Assembly (NCBI GenBank): GCA_035292785.1
Contig: DATDPK010000052.1
Location: 1-49,311, forward strand
Source of the DNA: Candidatus Nanoarchaeia archaeon
GTDB lineage: Archaea > Nanobdellota > Nanobdellia > Woesearchaeales > ARS49
Direction: 5' to 3'
Length of the DNA: 49,311 nucleotides
The position numbers were made by a program, and so were the translations under genes. The notes under the pieces were generated by a model. The model ran no database searches and had not been told where the DNA came from. It saw nothing but the letters and a program-made list of their open reading frames with translations. Positions 22,263 to 42,692 of the stretch are shown here, in pieces; position 1 is the first letter of the stretch, and each line of letters starts with the position of its first letter.

Positions 22263-23066
22263 TTAGGTAGTCGGCAATGATGATCTCGGAAGCACAAGCA
22301 AATAACAAGAAGAAACAGCACCGCGCGGAATTTGGAAACGCAACATATTGTCAGTCTTTTCAATAGTCCAGCCAGGCAATTTCCTGCCTTCAGCACAAAC
22401 CTTTGGGTCAGAAGAATAAACACAATCCTGAGCAATCTCAGCAATACGATCGAATGCTATTGGATAATCCTCAAACTTGTGATTATAATTGAGCTTGAAG
22501 CTTGAATGATACGAAATTGTGCCGACATCCTCCTTCTTGAAGTTTTTCAACGGCAAGATTGACGGCCTTAATGCAACACCAGAAACTTCGCCTTTTTCCA
22601 CGTATAATTCATAATTGGATTTTGGAAAGTTAAGCTTTGATGCAGTATTATAAGATTCAATGTACTTATCAAAATGAGAATTAAATGAAGTTGTGATACC
22701 TTTTGCCAAAGCAGGCCTCTTAATTTCTCTCGGACGCTCTTCAGAGTTTAATGTAGGACAGAAGCCGGCATTTGATGTGCCCTCGCCAGTAAATCCCTGA
22801 TAATACGGATACAAAGCGACATCATTGACTGTTTTGTCCATTGCCAAAGTTGCAGCACTCTTTACAAAAATATCAACAAGCTTAGTCCGGGAATTAACCA
22901 TTAATACAGGGGCTTGAGCACTTCCCAAACCAGCACACGCTGGAGCTTGAGATCCCTCAGCACATACTTGAGTAGTCTTGGACTGAGCAAGAAAGAGAGC
23001 TACGATAAGTATGCCGAATACGAAAAGCAAGATGATTGCATAGTCCAAGCCTTTCTTGCCTCGCAT
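22263..23066 (-). CDS. prepilin-like (class III signal peptide) secreted protein, 267 aa; last gene of operon A
   Basis: The ATG at 23064-23066 overlaps the upstream stop as TGATG. N-terminus MRGKKG|LDYAIILLFVFGILIVALFLA. Cys-containing extracellular domain. Confidence 0.55.
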   Translation of the reverse strand: MRGKKGLDYAIILLFVFGILIVALFLAQSKTTQVCAEGSQAPACAGLGSAQAPVLMVNSRTKLVDIFVKSAATLAMDKTVNDVALYPYYQGFTGEGTSNAGFCPTLNSEERPREIKRPALAKGITTSFNSHFDKYIESYNTASKLNFPKSNYELYVEKGEVSGVALRPSILPLKNFKKEDVGTISYHSSFKLNYNHKFEDYPIAFDRIAEIAQDCVYSSDPKVCAEGRKLPGWTIEKTDNMLRFQIPRGAVSSCYLLVLPRSSLPTT

Positions 23067-23530
23067 CAATCCACACCCTCCACTTCAAGATATTTGCCGA
23101 TGTATAATTCAACAGGCAATACTTTGTAATCAGGAGAAGCTACAAAAGCCTTCATTTGATGATCCACAACACTTGCACCAAAAGGCTCTTTTTCAGAAAT
23201 TTGAACCTTGCAGACAATACTGCCAGGATTCACTTCGCAAGGCTCGTAAGTAAACACAATATAATTTTTGTTAAGCGCCTGAACAAGCCAGTTGTCTATA
23301 TCATCTTTTGATGCGCCTGAAAGATAAGGCCTGCGCTCTTCAATAAAATCAGCAAAAAACCTTTCAAGCTCAACTGCCTGCAAGCTGCCTTCAATAACTT
23401 TTGTTTCAGAGCCAGACGTCTTAAAACTAAGCAACATATTTACACCAACAATTCCAACAACAAGAACAAAACTAACAAAAATCAAACTAATCGCGCGGGC
23501 ATCAACCCCCTTCTTATGAAAACTTCTCAT
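23066..23530 (-). CDS. prepilin-like membrane-anchored protein, 154 aa
   Basis: ATG at 23528-23530 preceded by GAGGAG. N-terminus MRSFHKKG|VDARAISLIFVSFVLVVGIVGV. Confidence 0.5.
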   Translation of the reverse strand: MRSFHKKGVDARAISLIFVSFVLVVGIVGVNMLLSFKTSGSETKVIEGSLQAVELERFFADFIEERRPYLSGASKDDIDNWLVQALNKNYIVFTYEPCEVNPGSIVCKVQISEKEPFGASVVDHQMKAFVASPDYKVLPVELYIGKYLEVEGVD

Positions 23531-23972
23531 ATCTCCTCGGATAAACCTGGTCAACAGCCACAACAACAGGACCGGATTGTGTTACAAACGTTCTATTTGA
23601 CATAAATCTAAGATATTTAACAGGAGCCAAAGGCCAGGCAATATCATAAAATTCCTGATTGCCATAAATGATTTTGCTTCTGACAGTAATCTTGTAAGCA
23701 AATCTTTTCTGAGACAAAGAAAACTGTAAAGAGCGCTCTAAATTATCAGTCAATTGCTCTGTAGAGCCTGTGACAGGAGAATATTTTGCCAAATGCTGGA
23801 AAACACGCTCTTCAAAAATAGCAGCATCCAATTCAACAGGATTAACAGAGGCCTCAACCTTGCTGGCAGGGTAGACAATAACGCCAAACACGACAACGAT
23901 AGTCAAAATACTCCAAGGAATCCAATACAAACCTTCAGCAGGAGCAGCGACGCCACGCTTAAACCACGCCAT
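23514..23972 (-). CDS. prepilin-like membrane-anchored protein, 152 aa
   Basis: ATG at 23970-23972 preceded by GAGGGGG. N-terminus MAWFKRG|VAAPAEGLYWIPWSILTIVVVFGVIV; the hydrophobic segment starts later than in canonical pilins. Confidence 0.45.
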   Translation of the reverse strand: MAWFKRGVAAPAEGLYWIPWSILTIVVVFGVIVYPASKVEASVNPVELDAAIFEERVFQHLAKYSPVTGSTEQLTDNLERSLQFSLSQKRFAYKITVRSKIIYGNQEFYDIAWPLAPVKYLRFMSNRTFVTQSGPVVVAVDQVYPRRYEKFS

Positions 23973-24783
23973 AAGCAGTAACCCCCTCGCGAATGCCGCG
24001 CCAAAGCTGGGCTTTTGCAGCAGTATTATCTGATATTCTTGCCTCGATGAATAAAGAAGGAACATTTGAATCAAGAATCAAAAGAACGTCATCAGGCGCG
24101 AGAAGCTTTGTGTTCACAGGAATAATTGAAACAGGAACATTAAACTTATCAGCCAAAGACTGGGAAATCAAACAAGCAAGCTGTTCGCTCTCCTTCATTG
24201 AGTTGATATATAATTTAACCATAGGAAGGCCGGCAGGAAAAACCATAGCAGTTACAGAAGCATCGCCTGTGACAACAGATACTGGATTTCTTTCAATTAC
24301 TATGTTATGAACTTCTGCTTTCAACTTTGGAAGAGATATCTGCTCACAATATTTCGCATTGAAATTAAGCTTTATGTTTTTTACCTTATCAAGGCCGATG
24401 ACATTGCCTGATTTATAATAAATTAAAGCATTATCAACAGAGGGGAGGAAAGCAATGTGGTTAAGATCGTATAATGGGTCTTCTTCAAAATAGAAACTCC
24501 TGCCTTCGTCATTCTGAGAGAATATCGTGACCTTATTTTTAGAAACATTAATGCCGAACTCAGGAGGCAAATAAGAATTAACCGCAACATTCACGTCCTT
24601 GCGAACAGCAAACAAAGACGGAATTAACAAACCGTTATTTGCAGAATAATATTTCTCCTTGTAAACAAGAGAAGAACCAATTTTGTTAATAGCAGCATAA
24701 CCGCTCAACAGCACCATAACTGCAACAACAACCATAAACAACGGATGAAGTACAAATTCCAAAACAGTTCCGCGCTTGTTCAT
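23959..24783 (-). CDS. prepilin-like secreted protein, 274 aa
   Basis: ATGA overlap at 24780-24783. N-terminus MNKRG|TVLEFVLHPLFMVVVAVMVLL. Confidence 0.55.
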   Translation of the reverse strand: MNKRGTVLEFVLHPLFMVVVAVMVLLSGYAAINKIGSSLVYKEKYYSANNGLLIPSLFAVRKDVNVAVNSYLPPEFGINVSKNKVTIFSQNDEGRSFYFEEDPLYDLNHIAFLPSVDNALIYYKSGNVIGLDKVKNIKLNFNAKYCEQISLPKLKAEVHNIVIERNPVSVVTGDASVTAMVFPAGLPMVKLYINSMKESEQLACLISQSLADKFNVPVSIIPVNTKLLAPDDVLLILDSNVPSLFIEARISDNTAAKAQLWRGIREGVTAYGVV

Positions 24784-25280
24784 CCCACACTAACCACGTT
24801 ACACTCTTTGCTGATAGGAATGCTGATAGGCTGACCTTCAAAAACATGAATTCGTTTTTCTTTAAAACAAAAACCTTTGCCACATTCAACATTTGGCTGA
24901 CAAGTCTTGATATCGGGATAAAGTTTGCACGTCTCAATTGGCTTATTCTCCTTGAATTCTATTACACAAATACAACTCTCACCTTTACATTTGGCAGGAA
25001 GTAAAGGACCATCCATTGGATAAACCGCAAAAGTATATGTGGCTTTTGCAGACATTGGAGAAGAAATCTCAAGCCTTTGAGCAGTAGGAGCATCTAATAC
25101 TGTCTGCACATCATCTGTCAACCGCACAAAATCTTTCTGAGGCTCGCTCAAAGGAGGAAATATATAAGGCTTAATTATGAAAATGAAAATAATAGCGGCT
25201 GCGCCAAGCAAAAGAGACAAATGAAGAACGATTTGTATGAAATTCTCAAGACCACTTGTCTCTACATCACCCTTTTTCAT
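24780..25280 (-). CDS. prepilin-like secreted Cys-containing protein, 166 aa
   Basis: N-terminus MKKG|DVETSGLENFIQIVLHLSLLLGAAAIIFIFII. Eight Cys in the ectodomain. Confidence 0.5.
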   Translation of the reverse strand: MKKGDVETSGLENFIQIVLHLSLLLGAAAIIFIFIIKPYIFPPLSEPQKDFVRLTDDVQTVLDAPTAQRLEISSPMSAKATYTFAVYPMDGPLLPAKCKGESCICVIEFKENKPIETCKLYPDIKTCQPNVECGKGFCFKEKRIHVFEGQPISIPISKECNVVSVG

Positions 25281-25315
25281 ATAACAAACTCACTAAAAGA
25301 AGTTTATAAAGGTTG

Positions 25316-25606
25316 CTAAGCCTTAACACAGCAGTGCTTGTCAATACAGTCATCCCACTTTCCAGTTGGACTGTATTCTTCAGTAAATCCCTTACTAGTA
25401 TCACACGCATCTTTAGAACAAGCACGGCCAAGAATAATGTTGGAACACTTTGTAGCATTAATCTCTGCTTCTTTACCGATAGCAGTGTATTTTTCAGCAC
25501 CTTTGGTAATCTGCTGGCGAAGAACCAAAACAACAATGGCAAGAACGATAAGACTGATAATAATCAATACCATAGTATTTGTTGCAAGCTCAACACCTTT
25601 TTTCAT
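25316..25606 (-). CDS. short type IV pilin-like protein (96 aa) with a C-terminal Cys cluster ending HCCVKA
   Basis: N-terminus MKKG|VELATNTMVLIIISLIVLAIVVLV. Has its own TATA-like box 26 nt upstream. Confidence 0.65.
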   Translation of the reverse strand: MKKGVELATNTMVLIIISLIVLAIVVLVLRQQITKGAEKYTAIGKEAEINATKCSNIILGRACSKDACDTSKGFTEEYSPTGKWDDCIDKHCCVKA

Positions 25607-25628
25607 AAAGCAAAGATGGCGAGGCCAG

Positions 25629-25636
25629 TATATAAA
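25629..25636 (-). promoter_or_regulatory. internal TATA-like box for the 96-aa pilin-like gene
   Basis: The plus strand reads tatataaa (minus tttatata). Centre is 26-27 nt upstream of the ATG at 25606. Confidence 0.4.
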
Positions 25637-25647
25637 TTTATTTACAG

Positions 25648-26241
25648 CTATCTTATTAACTCACCACAAATACCCGGATTGTAAGTCAAAGCTATTGTAT
25701 GAACAGCCCAGCTAAGACGCCCACATAAATAAAAAGGCCTGCCCCCTCCCTTGATAGCATCCCATTCCATGCCCGTGCTCCATTCAAAGTTTTTCGCGTA
25801 AGTTCCTCTTCCTCTTCCAGAAATATCCCGACTCAGAGGGTTTTTTGAAATAGATAAATGACTTTGAAGAACGTCTTCGTAGATAACACCTGGCGGTCCT
25901 TTTTCATAAGCAGGAGACATAACCGCCGGCAACCCTACTTTAAAACAAACCTGCTCAACCCAATTACTACTCTCGTATTTCTTCCAGCAATCAAGAATTC
26001 CTGCTTCCAACTGATTCAAAGCAGTAAACCAATTGCTTGACAAATTTATTACCTGGTATGTCGGAGCGCCTGCAACCGCTCCAGGAATTTTTGTTTCAAC
26101 AGGTTTAAAAAAACCTCCAAAATAGTTCTCATTAACATAAGCAAATATCTTTGGGCCAAAACCAACAACAACTATTCCTATGAAAAAAAGACCTAAAAGG
26201 ATTGCAATCATAATTCCAGGACTGAAGCCTTTCCTGTTCAT
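25648..26241 (-). CDS. prepilin-like secreted protein, 197 aa
   Basis: N-terminus MNRKG|FSPGIMIAILLGLFFIGIVVVGFG. Its ATG overlaps the stop of the upstream micro-ORF as ATGA. Confidence 0.55.
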   Translation of the reverse strand: MNRKGFSPGIMIAILLGLFFIGIVVVGFGPKIFAYVNENYFGGFFKPVETKIPGAVAGAPTYQVINLSSNWFTALNQLEAGILDCWKKYESSNWVEQVCFKVGLPAVMSPAYEKGPPGVIYEDVLQSHLSISKNPLSRDISGRGRGTYAKNFEWSTGMEWDAIKGGGRPFYLCGRLSWAVHTIALTYNPGICGELIR

Positions 26242-26408
26242 TTAAGCCTCATAATATTCTGAACACTGAGCTTGCCGCTCTTCACAGCAAGCCAAATCAA
26301 AAATCCAAGCACAAACAAGCCAAGAATAAGGCCTACGATGTAGGTCCAGCCAGGCAATTCCTGACCGAGCTTGGACTTAAACAAGCTCAACCTATTATTG
26401 CATCGCAT
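26238..26408 (-). CDS. unlisted micro-ORF, 56 aa, single-TM peptide
   Basis: Hand translation: MRCNNRLSLFKSKLGQELPGWTYIVGLILGLFVLGFLIWLAVKSGKLSVQNIMRLK. Fills the otherwise empty 26242-26386 gap. Its stop forms ATGA with the downstream start. Confidence 0.35.
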   Translation of the reverse strand: MRCNNRLSLFKSKLGQELPGWTYIVGLILGLFVLGFLIWLAVKSGKLSVQNIMRLK

Positions 26409-33571: not shown

Positions 33572-36500
33572 ATTCAGCAAGCTCACGCTCCAATTCTTCC
33601 TTATGCTCCTCATAATATTTAGCAGTAATGCGAAGATGGGCGAATAATTCCTCCATTTCCTCCTTTGACAATAATCCTGCGCGCAACATCTTAAACCTGC
33701 CAAGCAAATCACGCCTTCTCTCCTCTGAAAGAGAATCAAGCATAGCGCGCAATTGTTTTAACGGGTCTTTCAAAACAGGCCTTTCCTTATGAACAATCCT
33801 GCGCAAACGCTCAAGAGCAGCCTCAAACTTCTTATGAGTCAGAGGCTTCTTCTTAATTTTCTTCTCAAGGTCAATCCATTCCTTATCTTCCAAAGCTTCC
33901 TCCTTGGCAAAAGAACGCAAGCGGGCAAGCTCATCAGCAGCAATCTTGGCAGCCTCGGGCCTTTCAACCGGCTTTTCAACCTTCTCAGGCTTTTTTTCTT
34001 TCACTGCCTTAAACAACAGGAAGCCGCCATAACCAAGAGCAGACAAAATCAACAATACCAACAAGAACCACAAGAAATTACGGAGCACTGAAGGCGGATG
34101 GGATGCTGGATCAAGAGGATCGTAGCCACGCTCAAGCTCAACACCATCCTTCCACCAATCACCATCAGTATCCTTTTTAGTTGGATTAGTGCCTGCCTGG
34201 AACTCCTGCAAATTAGTCAAGTCATCATTATCAGGATCTGCGTCAACAGCTGCTTCAGGACAATCAATGCAGCCAAAGTAATCCATACGCCACTTGTCAT
34301 TAATTCCATCATCCAAACTAAACTTCTGAGACAATGAACAGCCGGTTTCATCAACCTCCTCACCAAAAGGAGTGCCAAGACACTTGTCCATATCATCAGA
34401 AATTCCGTCCTCATCAAGGTCGCCAATCGGCTCAGAAGTGCACGCTTTAACCCGAGGGTCGCAAGCCAATCCTTCAATACAGTCAAAACTATCCTCACAA
34501 TTCTTGCCCTCACCACAACGCTCGCAAGAGCTGCCGCAATCAATGTCTGTTTCTCCTTCTGACAATACCTTATCATAGCAAGGAGGCGCGTCTGTGCAAA
34601 CATTTGTGTTAAGATTGCAGTAGCCAGATGAGCAGTCGTTATGCGTAATGCAACGCAAGTCATTCGTGCATTTTTTACAATTCGGGCCACCGCAATCAAC
34701 ATCAGACTCAAGACCGTTCATAACGCCATCTTCACAACTGGCAACCTTGCACACATTGCCAACACAATAATTAGTGGCACAATCAGGATTAGACAAGCAA
34801 GACATACCTGCTTCACAGCCGTCACAAACCTCTCCGCCACAATCAATGTCTGTTTCATCACCATCCCTGTCACCATCCAAACATTGAGGAGGAGTCTGGG
34901 AAATATCAACAACAAAACCATCGCTATCCATAGACTCGCTCTCAAGGCCAACACGGTTAACTGCCTTAACTCTGAGGAAATATCTCTTGCCGTTGACTAA
35001 ACGGAAAGAAGAGCCGTTTGCAGCAGTGCTGATGTAGAAAGGCTTTCCGCTCGTGACATTTGAAACAAGATTGGAAAATACAACCTGACGGTCCTGCATC
35101 AGGGTTACAAGATAATAAGAAATATTGCTGTCAGCATCCTCTGCCAGGAAAGCAGCACGAACTTTAGTCTGAGACCAAGAAACCTCAGGGTCAGAAAGAA
35201 CACCAGTATCATCAACATACTTCATAACAGGAGGGGTGGTGTCAACAATCACAGAAATATCAATAACATCAGACTGCTCGCCACCACCAGTTGAGCATTT
35301 AACATAATACTCATACCTGCCAGGAGAGCTCACAGTAACCGGCTGGAACTGGGCATACAAACTCCTGCACGCACCCATACATATCGTAGTATCATCAGGA
35401 CTCTCGCCCATATAACAAAACACGTGCTTGTTTGCAATAACACCAATCGTAAAGTTCAAAGTCCCAAAGCCCTCAGGGGTATTGCTTGAAACACTCAAAG
35501 GCAAAGAAGTGTCAATGCTGAACTTAACCTCAGCAGGAGAAGTTGTAAGGCCATTCAAACCCTTGCACACAACCCAATACGAGTAAGATTTCTCCTCAGT
35601 AACATTAACATCAACACTCAAACTTTGCTTTGGATACAAATCAAAGCCAGGGAAAAAGCCATCCATAGCTTCAAAATTACTTGTTGAAGCAGAATACTTG
35701 CAAAAGCCAGGCTTGCTTATCTGGGCCTTGAGCGTTGTGACAAACAAATTCTGGCCAGGAATGTACTGCTCAGCAATCACAGAGGGTTCTGCAAAAGCCT
35801 TAATCAATCTTGGAGCTTCAGGATCAAGCGTAATGTTGAAAGAACGCTGAGAAACTCCGAACGGAGGCATATCACAATAAACGTGCAACGGATAACCGCG
35901 AGTCTCTCCAAACGGAATAGAAAGCTCCGGAGAATCGTGAATGGTATTTTTACCTGAAAATGCCTTGAAAAACACGAAGTCATCGGGATTTGGAGCAGAA
36001 GGAACATCGTAAACGTACCTGCATTCGCCAGGCATAGCAGTTTCAACAGAAGCACTAAAGACAGAATAAGCAGTAACGCCAAAAGAAGGCTTTATCAAAC
36101 GGAAACTGGGCTTAACAGTTGCAACAAAGAAACCACTCTGCTTGAACACATCAAGAAGATTAAAGCCCTGAGCATTAACTTCAATAACATATTTGCCGCC
36201 TGTGACATTGCCAACTTTTGCAGTGAAAGTATAATTATCAGCACTCTTGAACAAATCAGTAATATCCCTTGGAATACTTTCCTTGACATAAGGACTCACA
36301 AAACTCTCCTGCAGCAAAAGAATGCTTTTCAACATAACAGGACGAGAAAAGTTCAATAAAATATCGATAATCGTCTTGTTCAAAACAGAACCATCAGGAG
36401 GAGAGATTTCAACACCTGCCAAAGACGGGTCGACAACCAAACGCAAAGAAATGCCAGGAGGGTCCATCAAAATGGATTTTTGATTCTGAGCATTCGAACT

Positions 36501-38615
36501 GAAATTATAAGTTCCGTTTAACTGAGAGACAGGAGAAAAGCTGTGAGTTGTCAAAAAGCCAGAAGTAGACTGGGACAAAGCAATAACTTCACCGCCCCTT
36601 GAAATCTCTGCAAAAGAAATTTGGGCAGGCTCGTCAAAAGTCAAGGTAAATGTAGGCGAATTGGCAGAAGTGTAAATAGTACTGCCAATCAATCTACCGC
36701 CTGTAACAGTCAAGTTCAGCAAAGTCGGGCCTTGGCAGTTATCACAAGCGTTTACCGTGATGTTGTTAACAACCTCGCGATTGTTTGCGGCATCAATGCT
36801 GAAAAAGCGAATGTTGTTATTGCCAACAGCAAGGCTTGCCAGCACTCTCTGGCCATCCTTCAATACAAGATTTTTAACAAGCAATTTAGAACTGTTAACC
36901 ACAATAGGGAAAGCGCTGGCAACACTGCAGGAACTTGTCGAGTTCACAACACACAAATAAGTCCTGTAGCCAGGACGAGAGACCATATCAATAGGAGGGG
37001 CTTTCCTGCTCAGCTTATCGAATATTCTAATGTTCAAAAAATCAGTCCTGCCAGCAACACCGGTTGGAATCAAAGAAGTGATAGGAGGGAAATAATCAGC
37101 CTCACACTTATTATCGCTCGCCTTACAATCAGGAGCAACACTTCCTCCAGCATTCTTAACACAACCAGCAGTTTCAAAATACTGGCAGACCTTAATGCCA
37201 CAAACATCACTGCTTGAAGAAGAAAGAGAATTGTCTGAGTTAAGTTTTATGCCCTCGCCCGGGCTGCCGCACTGCAAGAAAGTATAATCAGCACAAGTTG
37301 CCTCATCACAACTCTTGCTGACCTTTGTGTCCTTGTCAAAAAAGCACGGATAATTCTGAGTGGACAAAGCAGTTGATTTTTCCTCACGACAGACATCCCA
37401 CACAGCATTAGTTGCGTTGGCATTCTCTATGCCGGCTGTTCCTTTAGAAGAACACAACGGGCAATTATTGTAACGCTTGTCAACACAAACACCAATACCC
37501 AAATCAGCAAAAACAGGATTCCACGAGCAATCGCCAGCACCGCAATTATCACGCTTACAGGCATCCTCTGACTTGTAATCATAACAACTCATACGAGGGT
37601 CGCAGGAATAACACTTGTTGACAACAGTTGTGCTCCTATCGAAAAAGCAATACTTGGAAACAAGACCTTTTTCACAAGTATCTGGAGTTGAATAAAGACC
37701 GAAAGGATCAAAGCTTACATCGCAAATTTCCTTTTTAACACAACGCGCACCATTTTCATCAGAAATGCAGAACTCCTTATTCTGAGAACTGCAAACCACT
37801 TTTGGAGAAGCCTGGAATAACTTGTTAACATCATTGCACTGCCAAGCCTGATTAAACTTTGTCCCAAACGCCAAAGCCACAGAGCCTGCAAATGAAGAGT
37901 TGAATTCTGAACCAGTATAACTGCCATAACCAAACCTGGCAAGATAATCATAAAACCTGTCGTATGCAAAAGAGGAAAGACAGAAAACAGCGCTGCTCTG
38001 CTGACTGCACTCAATATCACCAGCATTGCCAACAATTGTGGCAGCATCGCCGTCTCCTTGTGCTTTGTAATGGGCGATAACTTGGTAAGTGTAGTCAGTA
38101 TTCCACTCCAAAGCATCGTCTTCATCTGTAAATGAAGTCAAAGAAGGAGAATCAGCAATCTTCTTGAAAGCCTTGCAGTCCTTTCCCTCACAACGGGAAA
38201 CAGCTATATAATCAGCAGGACAAGGAACATTGAAAGACAAATGCAGTTTTCTCTCGCCCTTCACAGGCTTGACGATAATATTCTGAGGAGCAGGCTTGTA
38301 ATTCGGGCTGCCGCACAAACTTATCACACCACAATCAGCAGGACAAGACTGAGCATTTTCAGAAGCCTGGCAGACACCATCACCGCAAGTACCAGCACCA
38401 GGAGCAAAAACAGTCGCATTGCAGTGCTGACCGCACGTGATTAAAGCAGTTGGAGGAGGGCCAATGAAAATATAGCCAAGGGCATCACAAGCTGACTTTG
38501 TAGAAAATGAGCCGTTCTTGACAACAGGGTCACAACAGCAACCAACGCTCTGAGCAGAGCCCTGAATAGCAAAAATCGACAAGATTAGCAAAAATATAAT
38601 CAACTTTGAGGACAT
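33543..38615 (-). CDS. giant (~1690 aa) cysteine-rich type-I membrane surface protein (adhesin-like)
   Basis: ATG at 38613-38615 preceded by AGGTGGTG; the track start at 38651 is TTG. Sec-type signal MSSKLIIFLLILSIFAIQGSAQS. Cys-rich modules, fn3-like segments (YFLRVKAVNRVGLES), 3 x TDIDCGG repeats, TSP3-like Asp-rich repeats. A TM segment (FLWFLLVLLILSALGYGGFLLF) is followed by a 155-aa charged cytoplasmic tail. Confidence 0.85.
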   Translation of the reverse strand: MSSKLIIFLLILSIFAIQGSAQSVGCCCDPVVKNGSFSTKSACDALGYIFIGPPPTALITCGQHCNATVFAPGAGTCGDGVCQASENAQSCPADCGVISLCGSPNYKPAPQNIIVKPVKGERKLHLSFNVPCPADYIAVSRCEGKDCKAFKKIADSPSLTSFTDEDDALEWNTDYTYQVIAHYKAQGDGDAATIVGNAGDIECSQQSSAVFCLSSFAYDRFYDYLARFGYGSYTGSEFNSSFAGSVALAFGTKFNQAWQCNDVNKLFQASPKVVCSSQNKEFCISDENGARCVKKEICDVSFDPFGLYSTPDTCEKGLVSKYCFFDRSTTVVNKCYSCDPRMSCYDYKSEDACKRDNCGAGDCSWNPVFADLGIGVCVDKRYNNCPLCSSKGTAGIENANATNAVWDVCREEKSTALSTQNYPCFFDKDTKVSKSCDEATCADYTFLQCGSPGEGIKLNSDNSLSSSSSDVCGIKVCQYFETAGCVKNAGGSVAPDCKASDNKCEADYFPPITSLIPTGVAGRTDFLNIRIFDKLSRKAPPIDMVSRPGYRTYLCVVNSTSSCSVASAFPIVVNSSKLLVKNLVLKDGQRVLASLAVGNNNIRFFSIDAANNREVVNNITVNACDNCQGPTLLNLTVTGGRLIGSTIYTSANSPTFTLTFDEPAQISFAEISRGGEVIALSQSTSGFLTTHSFSPVSQLNGTYNFSSNAQNQKSILMDPPGISLRLVVDPSLAGVEISPPDGSVLNKTIIDILLNFSRPVMLKSILLLQESFVSPYVKESIPRDITDLFKSADNYTFTAKVGNVTGGKYVIEVNAQGFNLLDVFKQSGFFVATVKPSFRLIKPSFGVTAYSVFSASVETAMPGECRYVYDVPSAPNPDDFVFFKAFSGKNTIHDSPELSIPFGETRGYPLHVYCDMPPFGVSQRSFNITLDPEAPRLIKAFAEPSVIAEQYIPGQNLFVTTLKAQISKPGFCKYSASTSNFEAMDGFFPGFDLYPKQSLSVDVNVTEEKSYSYWVVCKGLNGLTTSPAEVKFSIDTSLPLSVSSNTPEGFGTLNFTIGVIANKHVFCYMGESPDDTTICMGACRSLYAQFQPVTVSSPGRYEYYVKCSTGGGEQSDVIDISVIVDTTPPVMKYVDDTGVLSDPEVSWSQTKVRAAFLAEDADSNISYYLVTLMQDRQVVFSNLVSNVTSGKPFYISTAANGSSFRLVNGKRYFLRVKAVNRVGLESESMDSDGFVVDISQTPPQCLDGDRDGDETDIDCGGEVCDGCEAGMSCLSNPDCATNYCVGNVCKVASCEDGVMNGLESDVDCGGPNCKKCTNDLRCITHNDCSSGYCNLNTNVCTDAPPCYDKVLSEGETDIDCGSSCERCGEGKNCEDSFDCIEGLACDPRVKACTSEPIGDLDEDGISDDMDKCLGTPFGEEVDETGCSLSQKFSLDDGINDKWRMDYFGCIDCPEAAVDADPDNDDLTNLQEFQAGTNPTKKDTDGDWWKDGVELERGYDPLDPASHPPSVLRNFLWFLLVLLILSALGYGGFLLFKAVKEKKPEKVEKPVERPEAAKIAADELARLRSFAKEEALEDKEWIDLEKKIKKKPLTHKKFEAALERLRRIVHKERPVLKDPLKQLRAMLDSLSEERRRDLLGRFKMLRAGLLSKEEMEELFAHLRITAKYYEEHKEELERELAEYGKKHRHKK
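34437..34883 (-). repeat. three tandem ~45-50 aa cysteine-rich modules within the giant protein
   Basis: Residues 1257-1405 of the track ORF. DETDIDCGGEVCDGCEAGMSCLSNPDCATNYCVGNVC / LESDVDCGGPNCKKCTNDLRCITHNDCSSGYCNLNTNVC / GETDIDCGSSCERCGEGKNCEDSFDCIEGLACDPRVKAC. Confidence 0.8.
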
Positions 38616-39931
38616 AACACCACCTGAAGAGGAACAGACTGACTGTCCCAATTATCTGAAATGCTCTTATCCTTTGCAAAAACAGCAATGGCAAACGCCT
38701 GACCTAATGCATCTGAAGGAATCTCATTATTCAAACTGCCAGGAACGTGAACATCAAAAGTTACCGGGTCTTCGTCAGGGTCAGAAGCGCGCAATTTTAT
38801 CACATAAGGATTCTGGCCGTCAGGACAAGGGTCGTTAATCTCAAGCTGAGAGTTTTCATCATCAAGCCTCACAACATTAATTCTTGCACCCCTTCCCTCG
38901 CCAGTAATGTGGAATTTAACATCGCTCAAAGGAGCAGTGTCGATATTCCACAAAGCAGGAATACGATTCCTGCGCGCAACCCAGAACTCAAAAGGCCTGC
39001 TCTTCACAACACTTTGAGCATCCTTGACAATAACAAGGCTGTTGTCTCCCAAAGGAACAGTTTCAACAGAAAAGGCATTGAAATTCTTTGCCTTAAATGA
39101 AACATCAGTCACGTCTCCATCAACAATTGATTTTACAAAATAATAAACAGTTGCAGGACGCACAGGCAGTTTGGCAGCAAACGAGTTAAGAACAACCTTG
39201 CCACCAGCAGTTGTAACCTCAACAGGCCAGGAAAGCTCAACATTAACATTCTGCTCGCCAGCAAACTGATAAGTCTCATTCGCAAAAATAAGGCTTGCAA
39301 CAGCATTGCCTGTTGAAAATGAAAAACGGTCCTTAAAAGAATTGAAATCAGCACACTCAGTTGTACGCTTGGCAATAAAGGATTCAAGAGTTTCCTGAAC
39401 AGAACCTAAAACAGGCTGGCCAGTATCAGGGTTAGTTCCCTTGTACAGCGGAGGAAGAGTGTTTTCGCCATAATAGCCGAAGAAAAGAGTCTGGCCATCA
39501 GCAAACGGAAAACCATTGAAAGGATAATCAGGAGACTCGGAGAAAAATGAGCAAGTCTCAAGCTTTGTAACATCCTGACAGACAGTCCCGCTGGGAGGAA
39601 TAACAGCAAACCTCACTTTCAGCTTTTCAGGATAATTCACATCTGCATACGAGAGATAATTAACTCCTTCAATGCCTTCATCGTTTACTCCGCCCTGCTC
39701 CTTGTACAAAACACCGCCCTGCTTGCCAAGCAAATCAAAAGCATCATTAGCAGCCAAAACCAGACAAGTCACAACATAATCATAAACAGGCTGAACGCCC
39801 AACTTTTCCAAAGCCAACTGCGAAGGAGTTGATTCCAATCTTTGCATTTTTCCGCCAACATACAAGGCAATACCAAAAGCCATAACTATCATAATGCCGA
39901 TAATTATGAACATTGTAATCTGAGCTTTCAT
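38600..39931 (-). CDS. large prepilin-like protein (443 aa) with a C-terminal cadherin/He_PIG-like Ig segment
   Basis: N-terminus MKA|QITMFIIIGIMIVMAFGIALYV. C-terminal motif KLRASDPDEDPVTFDV. ATGA overlap at 39928-39931. Confidence 0.6.
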   Translation of the reverse strand: MKAQITMFIIIGIMIVMAFGIALYVGGKMQRLESTPSQLALEKLGVQPVYDYVVTCLVLAANDAFDLLGKQGGVLYKEQGGVNDEGIEGVNYLSYADVNYPEKLKVRFAVIPPSGTVCQDVTKLETCSFFSESPDYPFNGFPFADGQTLFFGYYGENTLPPLYKGTNPDTGQPVLGSVQETLESFIAKRTTECADFNSFKDRFSFSTGNAVASLIFANETYQFAGEQNVNVELSWPVEVTTAGGKVVLNSFAAKLPVRPATVYYFVKSIVDGDVTDVSFKAKNFNAFSVETVPLGDNSLVIVKDAQSVVKSRPFEFWVARRNRIPALWNIDTAPLSDVKFHITGEGRGARINVVRLDDENSQLEINDPCPDGQNPYVIKLRASDPDEDPVTFDVHVPGSLNNEIPSDALGQAFAIAVFAKDKSISDNWDSQSVPLQVVLCPQS

Positions 39932-41049
39932 TTCTTAATCCTCAACTTGCCAGACATATCATTCCAGGCGTCGACAATGCTCCTCTGAACAACATTCTTT
40001 TTAGGAGGAGGCTTATTTGCAACAATGAAAAATTCTGTTGTAGAAGGCTGGGATTCGCAGTTTGCAGTATCGTCATAAATTTTCACAAGCCTGCCGCACG
40101 CATCACGAGGCAAAGTAATATTTTCAAAATACCAACCAGCATAATCCCTTTGAGCGGGAGTTACGTTAAACTCGTGGAAGCCATAAGCAGAATGAGAACT
40201 GCTTTTAGCCAAGTACAACTGCTTGAACGCAGGAGTGAAATTAAAGAAAGAATAATTGTACTCAGGAACATCAGTCTTATGAACAACAGTGAAAACATAA
40301 TTCTTCAATTTGTCAAAAGGCTGAATCAATAAATTATTCACTGAAGCAGACGGAGATGGGAAAGAGGCAACATTTGGCAAATAAAACACGCTTTGAATAT
40401 CGTGATTATACCACACGCCGCTACCGCAGCCATCAGCATCGTTGTCATTATTGATGGCGCTGTTGCACAATGATGCAGATTTGTTCAAAGCCTGCAAAGG
40501 AGAGGTGGAACTGTTAATATCAGTATTAATGCTCATACCGAATGCGACAGAACTTCCATATTTTACGACGCAGATGCTATTGGCACAATTGTCCAAACGC
40601 CTGCCACCTGGCTGCAAACAATGCAAGCGGATAAAGTTTGTCACAAGGCCATAATCAGTCAAATAATTGTACTTGTTCAAAACAGCATCATAACGGTCGC
40701 AATACAAAGCAAAATCATTTGGGTTATTGTTAAGAGCGAGATTCAACAATTGAAGAGCGACCAAGCGGGTGCGGGAACTCCACTTGCCATTATCACAATA
40801 ATTATCAGAAATATACTGCCCATTAGAGATGCACTTTGGCTTTAAAGAAGAATTAAGCTGGCTCCAATAACGGTCAGGGAAATTATCCCACTGCTCATTA
40901 TAAGAATTACTAATAAAACACTGGCCAGACTGCTTGCAAAAACCGGTTGACTTCCTATCCCAATTATAACTCACATTAACTTCAACCCAATCTGCAGCCT
41001 GAACGATTGAGGCAAGCAGCACAATAATCAAAAACCACTTCACTGACAT
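39928..41049 (-). CDS. secreted Cys-rich protein, 373 aa (Sec-type signal)
   Basis: N-terminus MSVKWFLIIVLLASIVQA|ADW. Many N-x-S/T sequons and Cys. 10-nt overlap with the upstream gene. Confidence 0.6.
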   Translation of the reverse strand: MSVKWFLIIVLLASIVQAADWVEVNVSYNWDRKSTGFCKQSGQCFISNSYNEQWDNFPDRYWSQLNSSLKPKCISNGQYISDNYCDNGKWSSRTRLVALQLLNLALNNNPNDFALYCDRYDAVLNKYNYLTDYGLVTNFIRLHCLQPGGRRLDNCANSICVVKYGSSVAFGMSINTDINSSTSPLQALNKSASLCNSAINNDNDADGCGSGVWYNHDIQSVFYLPNVASFPSPSASVNNLLIQPFDKLKNYVFTVVHKTDVPEYNYSFFNFTPAFKQLYLAKSSSHSAYGFHEFNVTPAQRDYAGWYFENITLPRDACGRLVKIYDDTANCESQPSTTEFFIVANKPPPKKNVVQRSIVDAWNDMSGKLRIKK

Positions 41050-42692
41050 CTGAAACCCCTATCACCAAGATTTTTGTAGTCGCCAACATTTTTGCATTGA
41101 ATGCCGTCCCAACACTGGCTATCAGTACAGCAACCCTTGCTTGCCTCATTCTGCAAAGGAGACCAAGAAATAGATTTTACAACCTGGGTAGTATTACTGC
41201 TAATCAACAGCCAATTGCCGCCAGGCATACAAACAGCATTTTGATTTACACCAGTCAACAATGCGCCCTTCAAAGGATCACCGCAAGGACCTTTTGCTGT
41301 CGGAGTAACGCCTGTATTCTGGAACAAGGACAAGCTTGCAGACTGTGTTGCGCCTGCCTGAAGACTTGGATTGCACACGTAAAACTTGCCCTTATAATTC
41401 ATAATCGTGGCATTGCCCAAAAGAAAACTGCCAGTAGGAATGAATTGGTTGTTGAAACAACCGCCAGCACCATTAGAGTCCTCATAAGTATCAGCCTGAG
41501 TGTTGTCATCAGCAGGGTCACCACAACACTTAGTGCCTGACCACGCAATACCAGGCCATTTCTTGCCAGCAGCAACGCAAGCATCTTTATTGGTATTCAA
41601 ATCAGAAACCCAAGTGCCATCAGGAGCACAGAACTGAATAACATCAGAATCATCAGCAACCCAATCGCCGCTTGCCTTAACCTGATTGCCCTCTGACAAA
41701 GAAGTGCCATCACCAACACACTCATAAATTGTGGTTATGCTCGACTTGCACAAAAACTCGTGGCCGCTAACAAGCTTTTTTGTAAATGAGTTGAATGTTG
41801 TGCCGGACAAAGCAGAAGGAACACTGCCACAAATTGAAAGAGTCTGGCCGTCTGCAAGGAAAGAAGCATTACCAGAACAAGAAAGCTCTATGGCCTGGCC
41901 TGCAAGCGCTGCAGAAGACCACTTCCACTTATTAGCAGGATTTTTACCGCAAATGGCCCGTATAGTAGAATAAAATTTACACGGCTCAGTCTTATAAGCA
42001 GTATCAACACCGCAACAAATACTTTGAGTAGTTCTTCTCGTACCGTCAAACCAAACACCACCCCAATCACCGCCAGCCTGATCGCAAGACTGAGACTGGG
42101 CTGCATCACAAAGATCGTTGCCGTCAGAGTCTATACAGGCAAAAATGTTTTTCGAAGAATCAACCCAGACGCGGACACCAACAGTCTTGCTTTTTACTTG
42201 AATTGCTGCACTGGTGAAATAAGTGGGCACGGCAAAATCAGCAGCAGAGCCCAAGAATTTACTGCCGTCGGAACGAGTGACATTGGCACGGTAAGCAGGA
42301 GCATCTATCCAAACGTGGGAATAACCAGGCTCACCTGTTTCTGAGTTTGCACAAACCTTAATCTCATCACCCATTCCTTGAATAGGCCCGACACCAATTG
42401 GCCCTCCCCTGGATTTACCTGTGCCGCTTCCACCTGAAACTCTCTGGCCGGCATTATAAATAAAAATTCCAATCTCAACATTCTTCTCGTTTCTGCCAAA
42501 ATGAGTAATATCAGCAGAAGCCTTAAGAGGCGCCTGATAAGGCAACGTGAACAAGGAATAAGGAGAAGAACAGCCTCCAAGCGAAATAACATCACTGCGG
42601 TACTGGGTAAGTTCCCACTCAAACTCCAAAGCAGAGACGTTTACTGCGAGAATGAGAACTATTACTACCCAAAACCCCTTTTTTGTCATCAT
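41040..42692 (-). CDS. large prepilin-like Cys-rich protein (~550 aa); first gene of operon B
   Basis: Start called at the ATG pair 42687-42692 (MMTKKG|FWVVIVLILAVNVSA), because the ATG at 42716 lies inside the TATA-like element. Three CCG/CCT doublets. Confidence 0.6.
   Translation of the reverse strand: MMTKKGFWVVIVLILAVNVSALEFEWELTQYRSDVISLGGCSSPYSLFTLPYQAPLKASADITHFGRNEKNVEIGIFIYNAGQRVSGGSGTGKSRGGPIGVGPIQGMGDEIKVCANSETGEPGYSHVWIDAPAYRANVTRSDGSKFLGSAADFAVPTYFTSAAIQVKSKTVGVRVWVDSSKNIFACIDSDGNDLCDAAQSQSCDQAGGDWGGVWFDGTRRTTQSICCGVDTAYKTEPCKFYSTIRAICGKNPANKWKWSSAALAGQAIELSCSGNASFLADGQTLSICGSVPSALSGTTFNSFTKKLVSGHEFLCKSSITTIYECVGDGTSLSEGNQVKASGDWVADDSDVIQFCAPDGTWVSDLNTNKDACVAAGKKWPGIAWSGTKCCGDPADDNTQADTYEDSNGAGGCFNNQFIPTGSFLLGNATIMNYKGKFYVCNPSLQAGATQSASLSLFQNTGVTPTAKGPCGDPLKGALLTGVNQNAVCMPGGNWLLISSNTTQVVKSISWSPLQNEASKGCCTDSQCWDGIQCKNVGDYKNLGDRGFRCQ

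What the first reader, a model, noticed from the sequence alone, without database searches (positions are those of the whole stretch)
22263..42692. 20-kb surface-filament super-locus: 17 prepilin-like ORFs in two coupled operons, with no assembly machinery in view
Seen in sequence: every ORF from 22263 to 27916 (operon A, 12 ORFs) and from 31062 to 42692 (operon B, 8 ORFs) is on the minus strand and begins with a hydrophobic N-terminus. Seventeen of the 20 start with a short basic stretch ending [KR]-[GA], followed by a hydrophobic helix. Examples: MKRA|QGLPITTIII (twice), MKKG|VELATNTMVLIII, MNRKG|FSPGIMIAILLG, MKKG|MTPALLVSLVILG, MNKRG|TVLEFVLHPLFMVVV, MRGKKG|LDYAIILLFVFG, MRA|QIKMFETVGILVV, SSRA|QMEIFGLVIIVILL, MKA|QITMFIIIGIMIV, NKG|QIIGQIFIFIL, SKKG|FELQFHWIFIMIAG, MMTKKG|FWVVIVLIL. 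The genes are chained by ATGA (24780, 26238, 27217, 27605, 39928), TGATG (23066), TAATG (32022) or 10-29 nt overlaps. Established knowledge: this N-terminal layout matches archaeal class III signal peptides, found on type IV pilins and archaellins and processed by PibD/FlaK/EppA-type peptidases. Inference: the two operons encode a multi-subunit type-IV-filament-like surface structure with several short major-pilin candidates, many minor or large pilins, and a giant adhesin. None of the 20 products shows an enzymatic motif. The window holds no PilB/FlaI-type ATPase, PilC/FlaJ-type platform or prepilin peptidase. About 40 percent of the window goes to this locus in an otherwise streamlined genome, which would fit a cell-cell or host-attachment apparatus.
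Basis: partly seen in the sequence, partly recalled or inferred. Interest (0 to 1): 0.88.

Follow-up and report, generated by a model that had tools for sequence, protein, structure and literature searches.

The report
Woesearchaeal pilin-like surface gene cluster
A 20-kb block of about 20 genes in a tiny DPANN (Woesearchaeota) archaeon encodes previously unclassified proteins with the signal-peptide hallmarks of type IV pilins, plus a giant membrane-anchored surface protein; the block is conserved in well over a hundred related species and is a strong candidate for the apparatus these cells use to attach to surfaces or partner cells.

Summary
There are 20 tightly chained minus-strand ORFs. 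Seventeen carry a short basic leader ending [KR][GA] followed by a hydrophobic helix, against 1 of 30 other ORFs in the window (p=2e-9).

None of the 20 matches Pfam or NCBIfam. Several belong to large conserved families of Woesearchaeota: the B6 family has 2,112 clusters at 50% identity and occurs in 171 GTDB species. Across species the putative cleavage site is conserved (-2 K/R, -1 G/A/S, +1 Q nearly invariant in five families).

AlphaFold models show a long N-terminal helix plus a globular head: A1 has pLDDT 85 and B6 has pLDDT 94. Neither matches a solved structure.

The whole layout recurs in many genomes: operon B, an AbrB/PhoU regulator, a kinase-like protein, an Lrp regulator, operon A, then RPA.

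No ATPase, platform or peptidase lies in the window or in 147 of 148 related loci. One metagenome contig places A1-type pilins next to a T2SSE ATPase. Published surveys report flaI/flaJ/flaK in most Woesearchaeota.

The giant protein B4 and B2 (probably B1 too) are Sec-type proteins, not pilins.

Verdict: a real, undescribed, lineage-wide type-IV-pilin-like cluster. Filament formation and attachment remain inferred.

The parts
27605..27916 (-). A1: 103-aa short pilin candidate (MKRA|QGLPITTIII...), 6 Cys, probable major subunit
   Evidence: Family of 108 clusters with a near-invariant N-terminus and conserved Cys. AF2 pLDDT 85: helix 9-40 plus a small beta head. Strong SD-like AGAGGTG upstream.
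27366..27608 (-). A2: 80-aa paralogue of A1 (MKRA|QGLPITTIIII...)
   Evidence: 63% identical to A1 over residues 1-38. ATGA overlap with A1.
27217..27330 (-). A3: 37-aa membrane peptide (MKKG|QEDSN...), atypical polar spacer
   Evidence: Conserved at 40-48% identity in six related loci.
26387..27220 (-). A4: 277-aa pilin-like protein (MKKG|MTPALLVSLVILG)
   Evidence: Weakly conserved.
26238..26408 (-). A5: 56-aa membrane peptide with invariant P-G-W
   Evidence: Orthologues carry KRG|DLPGW or KKA|MEIPGW.
25648..26241 (-). A6: 197-aa pilin-like protein (MNRKG|FSPGIMIAILLG)
25316..25606 (-). A7: 96-aa short pilin candidate (MKKG|VELATNTMVLIII), 6 Cys, C-terminal CC like A1 and A2; TATA-like box upstream
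   Evidence: The A7 HMM hits the pilins next to the ATPase in L134.
24780..25280 (-). A8: 166-aa protein, 8 Cys, MKKG then a 13-residue spacer then a TM helix
23959..24783 (-). A9: 274-aa pilin-like protein with a degenerate Amidase_3-like C-terminal domain
   Evidence: The L001 orthologue hits Pfam Amidase_3 at 40.9 bits. The window copy aligns to it, but where the orthologue reads SLHAGAY the window copy reads AMVFPAG, with no His; that this His is a zinc ligand is my reading of the Amidase_3 family, not a tool result.
23514..23972 (-). A10: 152-aa protein (MAWFKRG|VAAPAEG..., spacer then TM helix)
23066..23530 (-). A11: 154-aa pilin-like protein (MRSFHKKG|VDARAISLIFVSF)
22263..23066 (-). 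A12: 267-aa pilin-like protein (MRGKKG|LDYAIILLFVFG)
27946..28416 (-). Lrp/AsnC-family regulator, 29 nt upstream of A1
   Evidence: Orthologues hit HTH_AsnC and AsnC_trans_reg. 46-51% identity and the same position in 32 of 82 loci.
28462..30135 (-). 557-aa membrane protein with a weak protein-kinase-like (RIO1/APH) domain
   Evidence: Conserved in position in 22 of 82 loci.
30184..31071 (+). AbrB/MazE-type DNA-binding domain plus a PhoU-like domain; divergent from the kinase-like gene, convergent with B8
   Evidence: MazE_antitoxin 32.9 bits. 51-62% identity in 35 of 82 loci.
41040..42692 (-). B1: 550-aa Cys-rich (26 Cys) secreted protein; leader ambiguous, probably Sec-type
   Evidence: Fused to B2 behind a Sec signal in L001. 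The L003 orthologue carries the Laminin_G_3 lectin domain.
39928..41049 (-). B2: 373-aa secreted protein with a Sec signal peptide (…IVQA|ADW), 12 Cys, 8 N-glycosylation sequons
   Evidence: Conserved in 37 of 82 loci.
38600..39931 (-). B3: 443-aa pilin-like protein (MKA|QITMFIIIG)
   Evidence: +1 Q in 40 of 40 orthologues.
33543..38615 (-). B4: 1,690-aa giant surface protein. Sec signal, CCCDP at the mature N-terminus, 82 Cys, Cys-rich repeats, Asp-rich repeats that look like thrombospondin type 3 calcium-binding repeats by eye (no tool match beyond two weak NCBIfam hits), TM helix at about 1515-1535, K/E-rich cytoplasmic tail
   Evidence: Conserved over its whole length in 40 full-length orthologues. 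Present in 67 of 82 loci.
33056..33571 (-). B5: 171-aa pilin-like protein (…KNKG|QIIGQIFIFIL)
   Evidence: +1 Q in 59 of 64, +5 Q in 59 of 64.
32022..33065 (-). B6: 347-aa pilin-like protein (…SKKG|FELQFHWIF)
   Evidence: 120 clusters. 2,112 representatives at 50% identity. 171 GTDB species. AF2 pLDDT 94: helix 5-60, then a beta domain and a helical bundle. No PDB fold match.
31546..32022 (-). B7: 158-aa pilin-like protein (MRA|QIKMFETVG)
   Evidence: +1 Q and +6 E in 78 of 78 orthologues.
31062..31556 (-). B8: 164-aa pilin-like protein (MSSRA|QMEIFGLV)
   Evidence: +1 Q, +3 E and +6 G in 73 of 73 orthologues.
42746..43261 (+). Possible extra member: divergent 171-aa Cys-rich ORF (MKKA|VIVLIIILIL)
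   Evidence: The only ORF outside the locus that meets the class III rule. One orthologue found (L006).

Best explanation
The locus is a chromosomal gene cluster conserved across Woesearchaeota. It encodes the structural subunits of a type-IV-filament-like surface appendage.

Shown:
- 13 to 18 of the 20 products carry a conserved class III-type signal peptide.
- The families are conserved across species.
- The gene order is conserved as a unit.

Inferred mechanism:
- A FlaK/PibD/EppA-type A24 peptidase encoded elsewhere cuts after the [KR][G/A/S]. In seven proteins this exposes an N-terminal Gln.
- A FlaI/PilB-type ATPase and a FlaJ/TadC-type platform, also encoded elsewhere, polymerise the short disulfide-stabilised pilins A1, A2 and A7 through their hydrophobic helices.
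- The five pilin-like proteins of operon B (B3, B5, B6, B7, B8) form a minor-pilin initiation or tip complex.
- This complex works with the Sec-exported Cys-rich proteins B1 and B2 and the giant membrane-anchored B4. The pairing is analogous to bacterial minor pilins with PilY1.
- The larger operon-A proteins are modular pilins that display extra domains. Examples are an amidase-like domain in A9, and a lectin domain in a B1 orthologue.
- The embedded Lrp, AbrB-PhoU and kinase-like proteins regulate expression.
- The likely role is adhesion to surfaces or partner cells.
For: - Motif enrichment: 17 of 20 locus ORFs against 1 of 30 others.
- The cleavage-site positions are conserved across species in six families: -2 K/R and -1 G/A/S in most members. 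+1 Q is invariant in B3, B7 and B8 and near-invariant in B5 (59 of 64) and A1 (36 of 37); B6 has F/I/L/V at +1, with E at +2 in 69 of 81 and an invariant W at +7. Nearby invariant acidic or Gly residues include B7 E+6 and B8 E+3 and G+6.
- AF2 models: A1 has helix 9-40 plus a small beta head (pLDDT 85). B6 has a 53-residue mature helix plus a globular domain (pLDDT 94).
- Nearly all products have an even Cys count, which fits extracytoplasmic disulfides.
- The super-locus order is conserved in L001, L003 and dozens of GTDB and JGI loci.
- In L134, three A1/A7-type pilins (HMM E=2e-12) lie 6 kb downstream of a T2SSE ATPase (Pfam 53.6 bits; PDB 2OAP E=4e-26) and an 8-TM platform-like protein.
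- Adhesion-type domains occur in orthologues: Laminin_G_3 and Amidase_3.
- Literature: flaI, flaJ and flaK are present in most Woesearchaeota genomes (PMC5994134, PMC11606122). Archaeal major pilin genes usually lie away from the machinery (PMC4858521).
Against: - No Pfam or NCBIfam pilin model matches any of the 20 proteins, or the 58 A1-family members scanned.
- Foldseek finds no solved pilin for either model. The best profile hit to a pilin, 6xxe, has E=0.71.
- No ATPase, platform or peptidase lies within about 10 kb in the window or in 147 of 148 related loci.
- I could not check the rest of any genome that carries the locus.
- B4 has a TM anchor and a cytoplasmic tail, which fits poorly with a tip adhesin on a long filament.
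- A3, A5, A8 and A10 have polar spacers that are atypical of pilins.
Confidence: 0.6

Rival explanations
1. The proteins form a non-filamentous envelope complex. The class III-like N-termini, cleaved or not, serve as single-helix membrane anchors or build only a very short pseudopilus or stalk. The anchored proteins form a fixed complex around the giant transmembrane protein B4. This could be an S-layer or cell-envelope scaffold, a bindosome-like array, or the base of a cell-cell contact structure. It would not be an extended pilus.
For: - B4 is a type I membrane protein whose TM helix and cytoplasmic tail are conserved in 40 orthologues.
- The B4-B8 module is the most widely conserved part of the locus, present in 65-82 of 82 loci, and often has no A1 within 10 kb.
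- Many members are large (270-440 aa) or have polar spacers.
- There is no adjacent motor in 147 of 148 loci.
- The Sulfolobus bindosome is a precedent for class III signals on non-pilus surface proteins (PMC3047682).
Against: - The short A1, A2 and A7 proteins, with an ultra-conserved hydrophobic helix and a tiny variable head, look like polymerising major pilins.
- A1-type pilins sit beside a T2SSE ATPase in L134.
- Even a pseudopilus or bindosome needs the same ATPase, platform and peptidase, so this differs from the main explanation in the product and not in the kind of machine.
Confidence: 0.25
2. The structure is a type IV filament, but its role is uptake rather than attachment. It would be a competence-like or scavenging pilus that brings DNA or other macromolecules to a cell that cannot make its own nucleotides. 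This would resemble the ComG pilus of monoderm bacteria, which has one major and four minor pilins.
For: - The gene content resembles a ComG-type set, with short major pilins plus five minor pilin-like proteins.
- DPANN and CPR cells are auxotrophic, and CPR pili are linked to DNA uptake in the literature (PMC9938205).
Against: - No ComEC, ComEA or DprA-like gene lies in the window or in related loci by the Pfam scans made.
- The lectin and amidase-like modules and the giant Cys-rich protein point to binding of surfaces.
Confidence: 0.08
3. The resemblance to prepilins is incidental. These would be ordinary Sec-dependent N-in/C-out signal-anchor proteins. The basic residues would follow the positive-inside rule, and there would be no dedicated peptidase or assembly system.
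For: No profile or fold match to any pilin family. No machinery in view.
Against: - The positive-inside rule does not explain a small residue (G/A/S) fixed at -1 and a near-invariant Gln at +1 in five families over 36-78 orthologues each.
- It does not explain 17 of 20 neighbours sharing the motif against 1 of 30 elsewhere.
- It does not explain A1-type genes sitting next to a T2SSE ATPase in L134.
Confidence: 0.05

Closest known systems
Methanococcus maripaludis Epd pili (archaeal TFF 'system 1'; EppA-processed pilins)
   Same: - Class III signal peptides with Gln at +1.
- One very short major pilin plus several essential minor pilins.
- The major pilin is encoded away from the assembly genes.
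- System 1 is reported in some DPANN (bioRxiv 10.64898/2026.04.22.720090; PMC4858521; PMC3875500).
   Different: - No match to the Class_III_signal/DUF361 or other archaeal pilin profiles.
- No EppA, ATPase or platform in the locus.
- Far more pilin-like genes (13-18).
- The locus includes a 1,690-aa TM-anchored protein and three embedded regulators.
Bacterial type IVa minor-pilin/PilY1 operon (fimU-pilVWXY1E) and T2SS minor pseudopilins GspH-K
   Same: Four or five pilin-like genes are translationally coupled with a large non-pilin surface protein. The presumed role is priming assembly and presenting an adhesin.
   Different: - No sequence or fold similarity was detected.
- B4 has no PilY1 beta-propeller hit.
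- Unlike PilY1, B4 has a C-terminal TM helix and a cytoplasmic tail.
Modular type IV pilins of Streptococcus sanguinis (PilB vWA module, PilC lectin module)
   Same: A pilin-type N-terminus is joined to a functional domain. Orthologues here carry Amidase_3 (the A9 family) and Laminin_G_3 lectin (the B1 family) (PMC8179133, PMC9934059).
   Different: - These are archaeal, unrelated sequences.
- The window's own A9 appears to have lost a catalytic residue (my reading of the alignment).
- B1 may be Sec-type and not a pilin.
Haloferax volcanii PilA1-6 and other stand-alone archaeal major pilins
   Same: The pilin genes lie far from pilB/pilC. A hydrophobic domain is highly conserved among paralogues (PMC4858521).
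   Different: Those occur as singletons or tandem pairs. Here a 20-gene, 20-kb block is conserved as a unit, together with its regulators.
Sulfolobus bindosome (Bas system)
   Same: [quoted passage not shown] There is a weak N-terminal match of B7 to BasB (E=0.007, far below the cut-off).
   Different: There are no solute-binding domains or ABC transporter association. The BasB hit is far below threshold.

Membership tests
Type IV pilin / class III signal-peptide proteins (type IV filament superfamily) | Short positively charged leader ending in a small residue (G/A/S) preceded by K/R, followed at once by about 20 hydrophobic residues | tested here: met
   13 canonical cases plus 4-5 atypical ones among the 20 ORFs. 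Conserved across 36-81 orthologues per family.
Type IV pilin / class III signal-peptide proteins (type IV filament superfamily) | Extended N-terminal alpha-helix packed against a globular head ('lollipop') | tested here: met
   AF2 predictions only. A1: helix 9-40 plus a beta head. B6: helix 5-60 plus a globular domain. The other 18 proteins were not modelled.
Type IV pilin / class III signal-peptide proteins (type IV filament superfamily) | Match to a curated pilin profile (Pfam Pilin_N, Class_III_signal, Arch_flagellin, N_methyl; NCBIfam pilin models) | tested here: not met
   No hit for any of the 20 ORFs. Of 58 A1-family members, 1 hits Pilin_N, at E=0.22.
Type IV pilin / class III signal-peptide proteins (type IV filament superfamily) | Structural similarity to a solved pilin | tested here: not met
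   Foldseek against PDB: best E=0.012 for B6 and 6.1 for A1, none of them pilins. Profile against PDB: 6xxe at E=0.71. From memory, 6xxe is a Thermus pilin.
Type IV pilin / class III signal-peptide proteins (type IV filament superfamily) | Genomic association with a T2SSE-family ATPase and a polytopic platform protein | tested here: inconclusive
   Absent from the window and from 147 of 148 related loci within about 10 kb. Present beside A1/A7-type pilins in L134. The rest of these genomes could not be read. The literature reports flaI and flaJ in the lineage.
Type IV pilin / class III signal-peptide proteins (type IV filament superfamily) | Leader removed by an A24 aspartic prepilin peptidase | not testable with these tools
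   A crude motif scan (G.GD.[KR] in ORFs with at least 4 TM helices) found none in the window or the loci. flaK is reported in Woesearchaeota (PMC5994134, PMC11606122).
Methanococcus Epd/EppA-type pilins (TFF system 1) | Gln at +1 of the mature protein | tested here: met
   A1, A2, A3, B3, B5, B7 and B8 in the window. Invariant or nearly so in orthologues.
Methanococcus Epd/EppA-type pilins (TFF system 1) | DUF361/Class_III_signal domain (QxSxExxxL) and a dedicated EppA, ATPase and split platform in the locus | tested here: not met
   No Pfam hit. No machinery in the locus.
Bacterial minor-pilin + PilY1 priming module | Several pilin-like genes co-transcribed with a large non-pilin protein that carries the PilY1/PilC beta-propeller | tested here: not met
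   The gene arrangement is analogous (B3, B5-B8 plus B4). B4 has no PilY1 domain hit and no PDB sequence match, and it is TM-anchored.
Archaellum | FlaB/ArlB archaellin domain plus FlaF/G/H/I/J | tested here: not met
   No Arch_flagellin or Fla family hit. No FlaI homologue.
Sulfolobus bindosome substrates | Class III signal peptide on a solute-binding protein linked to an ABC transporter and the BasEF machinery | tested here: not met
   No SBP domains. The only ABC transporter in the window (5684-8577) is an ABC-2 exporter 14 kb away. The BasB hit has E=0.007 and 16 bits against a cut-off of 230.

The most novel reading that the evidence does not exclude
The operon-B module would not be an accessory of an ordinary adhesive pilus. 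It would be a previously unrecognised surface machine found across the lineage.

The module consists of five pilin-like proteins plus the 1,690-aa Cys-rich transmembrane protein with a cytoplasmic coiled-coil tail, and B1 and B2. In this reading, a short pilin-built stalk or piston positions or gates the giant protein at the contact site with a partner cell. That would make it a candidate for the structural basis of DPANN-host attachment or intercellular bridges.

Its protein families are all absent from current domain databases.
Probability: 0.15. Interest if true: 0.85.

Novelty: new variant of a known kind. Interest (0 to 1): 0.62.

Why it matters
Woesearchaeota are among the most abundant and diverse DPANN archaea. 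None has been cultured, and how they contact partners is unknown.

- A 2016 census of archaeal type IV pili could not identify cognate pilins in 'nanoarchaeal' genomes (PMC4858521).
- A groundwater study stated that type IV pilus components are missing from DPANN genomes (bioRxiv 10.1101/2020.05.14.094862).
- This locus supplies concrete candidates. They include a conserved short pilin family, a five-member minor-pilin-like module and a giant anchored surface protein. All are invisible to Pfam and NCBIfam, yet they are conserved in at least 171 species and about 2,100 sequence clusters.
- The candidates give targets for metatranscriptomics, proteomics, antibody or cryo-ET labelling and heterologous cleavage assays.
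- They also suggest new profile models that would change how DPANN surface biology is annotated.

Tried and rejected
1. Pfam and NCBIfam scans of all 20 ORFs gave nothing above threshold. Scanning 58 A1-family members one by one gave only spurious TM-helix hits.
2. Foldseek against PDB for both AF2 models gave no meaningful match. Profile and sequence searches against PDB gave only TM-helix noise and a non-significant hit to 6xxe.
3. An exact look-up of the window's own B6 in public assemblies found no record, so the contig could not be extended.
4. I tried to find the assembly ATPase in the same genomes. I verified a recalled S. acidocaldarius FlaI sequence against PDB 4II7. I then searched the window and all loci locally and found one hit, in L134. 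I spent the last large protein search on FlaI, but only the top 120 hits were listed and all were Crenarchaeota, so nothing could be matched to the long Woesearchaeal contigs. This was a dead end.
5. Walker-A and A24-motif regex scans of 148 loci found nothing apart from two ABC-like ATPases.
6. A mobile element or provirus was rejected. Base composition is even. The flanks are housekeeping genes, and synteny with RPA is conserved across species.
7. An archaellum was rejected: there is no archaellin or Fla protein.
8. No tRNA or Rfam RNA occurs in the window.

Full report
**Organism and setting.** The window is a chromosomal segment of a DPANN archaeon of the Woesearchaeota (GTDB Woesearchaeales/Nanoarchaeia). 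Its flanks encode ValRS, CysRS, RadA, RadB, ribosomal protein S2, RPA and PheRS. The closest relatives of the locus proteins all come from Woesearchaeota or Nanoarchaeia MAGs. Base composition is even at 39-45% GC. There are no tRNA or Rfam RNA genes. Nothing suggests a mobile element.

**Observation check: ORFs and junctions.** The 20 ORFs exist as described. I name them A1-A12 (27916 down to 22263) and B1-B8 (42692 down to 31062). The ATGA, TGATG and TAATG junctions and the 10-29 nt overlaps are real. Three junctions (A2/A3, A6/A7, A7/A8) are instead 35-41 nt gaps, two of them with TATA-like boxes.

**Observation check: the N-terminal motif.** I used an explicit rule: [KR][GA] within the first 14 residues, followed within 13 residues by a strongly hydrophobic 16-mer. 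The rule is met by 17 of 20 locus ORFs and by 1 of 30 other ORFs in the window (Fisher p=1.9e-9). The single outside hit is a divergent Cys-rich ORF directly upstream of B1 (42746-43261, + strand).
- 13 ORFs are canonical.
- A3, A8 and A10 have a polar spacer before the helix.
- B1 looks more like a Sec signal peptide.
- B2 and B4 are clearly Sec-type.
- A5 fails the rule in the window, but its orthologues read KRG|DLPGW and KKA|MEIPGW.
- The shared minus strand is not informative, because 24 of 30 other ORFs are on it too.

**No match to known families.** None of the 20 proteins matches any Pfam or NCBIfam model at a meaningful score. Scanning 58 members of the A1 family individually gave only TM-helix noise, plus one Pilin_N hit at E=0.22. 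By database standards these are unknowns.

**The families are large and conserved.**
- B6 (347 aa) has at least 120 clusters at 90% identity and 2,112 representatives at 50% identity. It was found in 171 GTDB species representatives using one peptide pattern.
- A1 (103 aa) has 108 clusters.

**Conservation of the putative cleavage site.** I aligned orthologues from 82 GTDB loci.
- Position -2 is K/R and position -1 is G/A/S in nearly all members.
- +1 is Gln in 40/40 (B3), 78/78 (B7), 73/73 (B8), 59/64 (B5) and 36/37 (A1).
- Other invariant residues lie close by: B7 E+6; B8 E+3 and G+6; B6 E+2 and W+7.
- The B6 N-terminus [KR][GA]|FELQFHWIF is visible in about 105 of 120 clusters.

A positive-inside signal anchor does not predict a fixed small residue at -1 and a fixed Gln at +1. 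A prepilin-peptidase site does. From my own knowledge, Gln at +1 is the hallmark of the EppA-processed pilins of Methanococcus.

**Structure predictions.**
- A1, with a 58-sequence alignment, gives pLDDT 85: a helix at 9-40 followed by a small beta-rich head held by conserved cysteines.
- B6, with 64 sequences, gives pLDDT 94: a helix at 5-60, which is 53 residues after the predicted cut, followed by a beta domain and a C-terminal helical bundle.

These are pilin-like architectures. However, Foldseek finds no solved structure resembling either model. The best profile hit to a pilin chain, 6xxe, is not significant at E=0.71. The heads therefore have no relative among solved PDB structures; no library of predicted cellular structures (AlphaFold DB) was on hand. 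Nearly all products have an even number of cysteines, as expected for disulfide-bonded extracellular proteins: B4 has 82, B1 has 26, and A1 and A7 have 6 each.

**Synteny.**
- In an 875-kb JGI contig (L001) and a 697-kb NCBI contig (L003/L004) the whole arrangement recurs: B1/B2, B3, giant B4, B5-B8, AbrB-PhoU regulator, kinase-like membrane protein, Lrp/AsnC regulator, A1-type pilins, then a series of small and large pilin-like genes.
- Across 82 GTDB loci, B6, B7, B8, B4 and B5 are present in 65-82, and B3 in 45.
- A1 lies within 10 kb in 38 loci. The regulators are present in 22-35.
- JGI metagenome loci centred on A1 show the same order, ending in RPA as in the window.
- The three 'intervening' genes are therefore conserved parts of the locus.
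- Operon B is an ancient core, while operon A evolves fast.

**B4.** B4 is conserved over its whole length in 40 full-length orthologues. This includes the CCCDP motif right after the signal peptide, the Cys-rich repeats, the Asp-rich repeats, the TM helix and the K/E-rich cytoplasmic tail.

**Hints of function.** The L001 orthologue of A9 has an Amidase_3 domain above Pfam's threshold. The L003 orthologue of B1 has a Laminin_G_3 lectin domain. In the alignment, the window's A9 has no His where the orthologue reads SLHAGAY, which I take to be a catalytic zinc ligand. Pilin-type N-termini joined to binding modules recall the modular pilins of Streptococcus sanguinis (PMC8179133, PMC9934059).

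**Assembly machinery.**
- The window has no T2SSE, T2SSF or A24 hit in the ORFs scanned.
- A verified FlaI sequence finds nothing in the window or in 84 loci even at E<=10.
- Motif scans agree.
- Among 64 metagenome loci found with the A1 profile, one (L134) carries a T2SSE ATPase (Pfam 53.6 bits; archaeal GspE 2OAP E=4e-26). It also carries a 687-aa, 8-TM platform-like protein with no Pfam hit. Three short pilins there match the A1 and A7 HMMs (E=2e-12 and 1e-8), followed by two large pilin-like proteins.
- L134 ties the A1-type pilin family physically to a type IV filament motor.
- I could not read the rest of any genome that carries the super-locus. My last large protein search, with FlaI, listed only crenarchaeal hits.
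- At lineage level, two genomic surveys report flaI, flaJ and flaK in most Woesearchaeota genomes (PMC5994134, PMC11606122).
- Makarova et al. note that archaeal major pilins are usually encoded away from the machinery, but as singletons or tandems. They also could not identify cognate pilins in 'nanoarchaea' (PMC4858521).

**Interpretation.** The best-supported reading (confidence about 0.6) is a type-IV-filament-like surface appendage.
- A1, A2 and A7 are major subunits.
- B3, B5, B6, B7 and B8 form a minor-pilin initiation or tip complex. It cooperates with the Sec-exported B1 and B2 and the anchored giant B4.
- The larger operon-A products are modular or accessory pilins.
- Processing and assembly are done by a peptidase, ATPase and platform encoded elsewhere.
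- Control comes from the embedded Lrp, AbrB-PhoU and kinase-like proteins.

The main rival (about 0.25) is that the pilin-like proteins build only a short stalk or a fixed envelope complex around B4 rather than an extended pilus. B4's TM anchor and cytoplasmic tail, and the wider conservation of the B module, favour this. A competence-type role (about 0.08) and incidental signal anchors (about 0.05) are less likely.

**Novelty and verdict.** The kind of system is known: class III signal-peptide proteins of the type IV filament superfamily. The protein families, the size and fixed architecture of the cluster, the embedded regulators and the giant anchored protein appear in none of the literature I could search. 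I classify it as a new variant of a known kind. It is of solid interest for DPANN cell biology, but filament formation and host attachment are still inferred.

Noticed in passing
window 42746-43261 (+): A divergent 171-aa Cys-rich ORF (MKKA|VIVLIIILIL...) lies 53 nt upstream of B1. It is the only ORF outside the locus with a class III-like N-terminus, and it may be a 21st member. Only one orthologue was found (L006, 38% identity).
   Followed up: partly
window 9120-16020 (-): An envelope-biogenesis cluster lies about 6 kb downstream of the locus. It holds a PMT_2 glycosyltransferase (9120-10520) and two membrane-anchored proteins with weak thioredoxin/TraF-like hits (10517-12625, 12621-13250). 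It also holds two large polytopic membrane proteins with no Pfam hit (13247-14569, 14545-16020). These are plausible helpers for glycosylation and disulfide formation in the Cys-rich surface proteins.
   Followed up: partly
window 23959-24783 (-); L001 18940-19890: The A9 family joins a pilin-like N-terminus to an N-acetylmuramoyl-L-alanine amidase (Amidase_3) fold. That domain targets bacterial peptidoglycan, which archaea lack. The window copy seems catalytically dead. This could hint at binding to bacterial cell walls.
   Followed up: partly
window 38540-38560 (-), B4 residues 24-29; same position in L001 and L003: Three consecutive cysteines (G-CCC-DP) follow the predicted Sec cleavage site of the giant protein directly. 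They are conserved in distant orthologues. Their function is unknown; metal binding, a thioester or another modification are possible.
   Followed up: no
window 27917-27945 (-): The 29-nt spacer between the Lrp stop codon and the A1 start codon contains a 7-bp stem-loop (CCTCTCT-ttgtatc-AGAGAGG) that overlaps the A1 Shine-Dalgarno-like AGAGGTG. It may be an attenuator, a processing site or a translational control element for the major pilin.
   Followed up: no
L134 3669-4795: A nucleotidyltransferase/HEPN toxin-antitoxin pair is inserted between the T2SSE ATPase and the platform-like gene of the pilus locus on metagenome contig Ga0209210_1000875.
   Followed up: no
L005, L007, L008, L010, L011, L014 and many other GTDB loci: Many genome records titled 'uncultured Methanosarcinales archaeon' (binchicken/TPA assemblies) carry this Woesearchaeota-specific locus at 50-55% identity. 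The record titles look like placeholder or wrong taxonomy.
   Followed up: no
L003 17856-21038 and L001 322-3171: Locus composition is plastic. In L003, operon A contains a pilin-like protein of more than 1,060 aa (MKKRG|VSGAFMWVSIV...). In L001, B1 and B2 are fused into one 949-aa Sec-type protein.
   Followed up: partly
window 30136-30183: The kinase-like gene and the AbrB-PhoU regulator are divergently transcribed from a 48-nt AT-rich spacer (TTTTATATATTAAAG). The regulator's 3' end overlaps the 3' end of B8 by 10 nt in convergent orientation.
   Followed up: no
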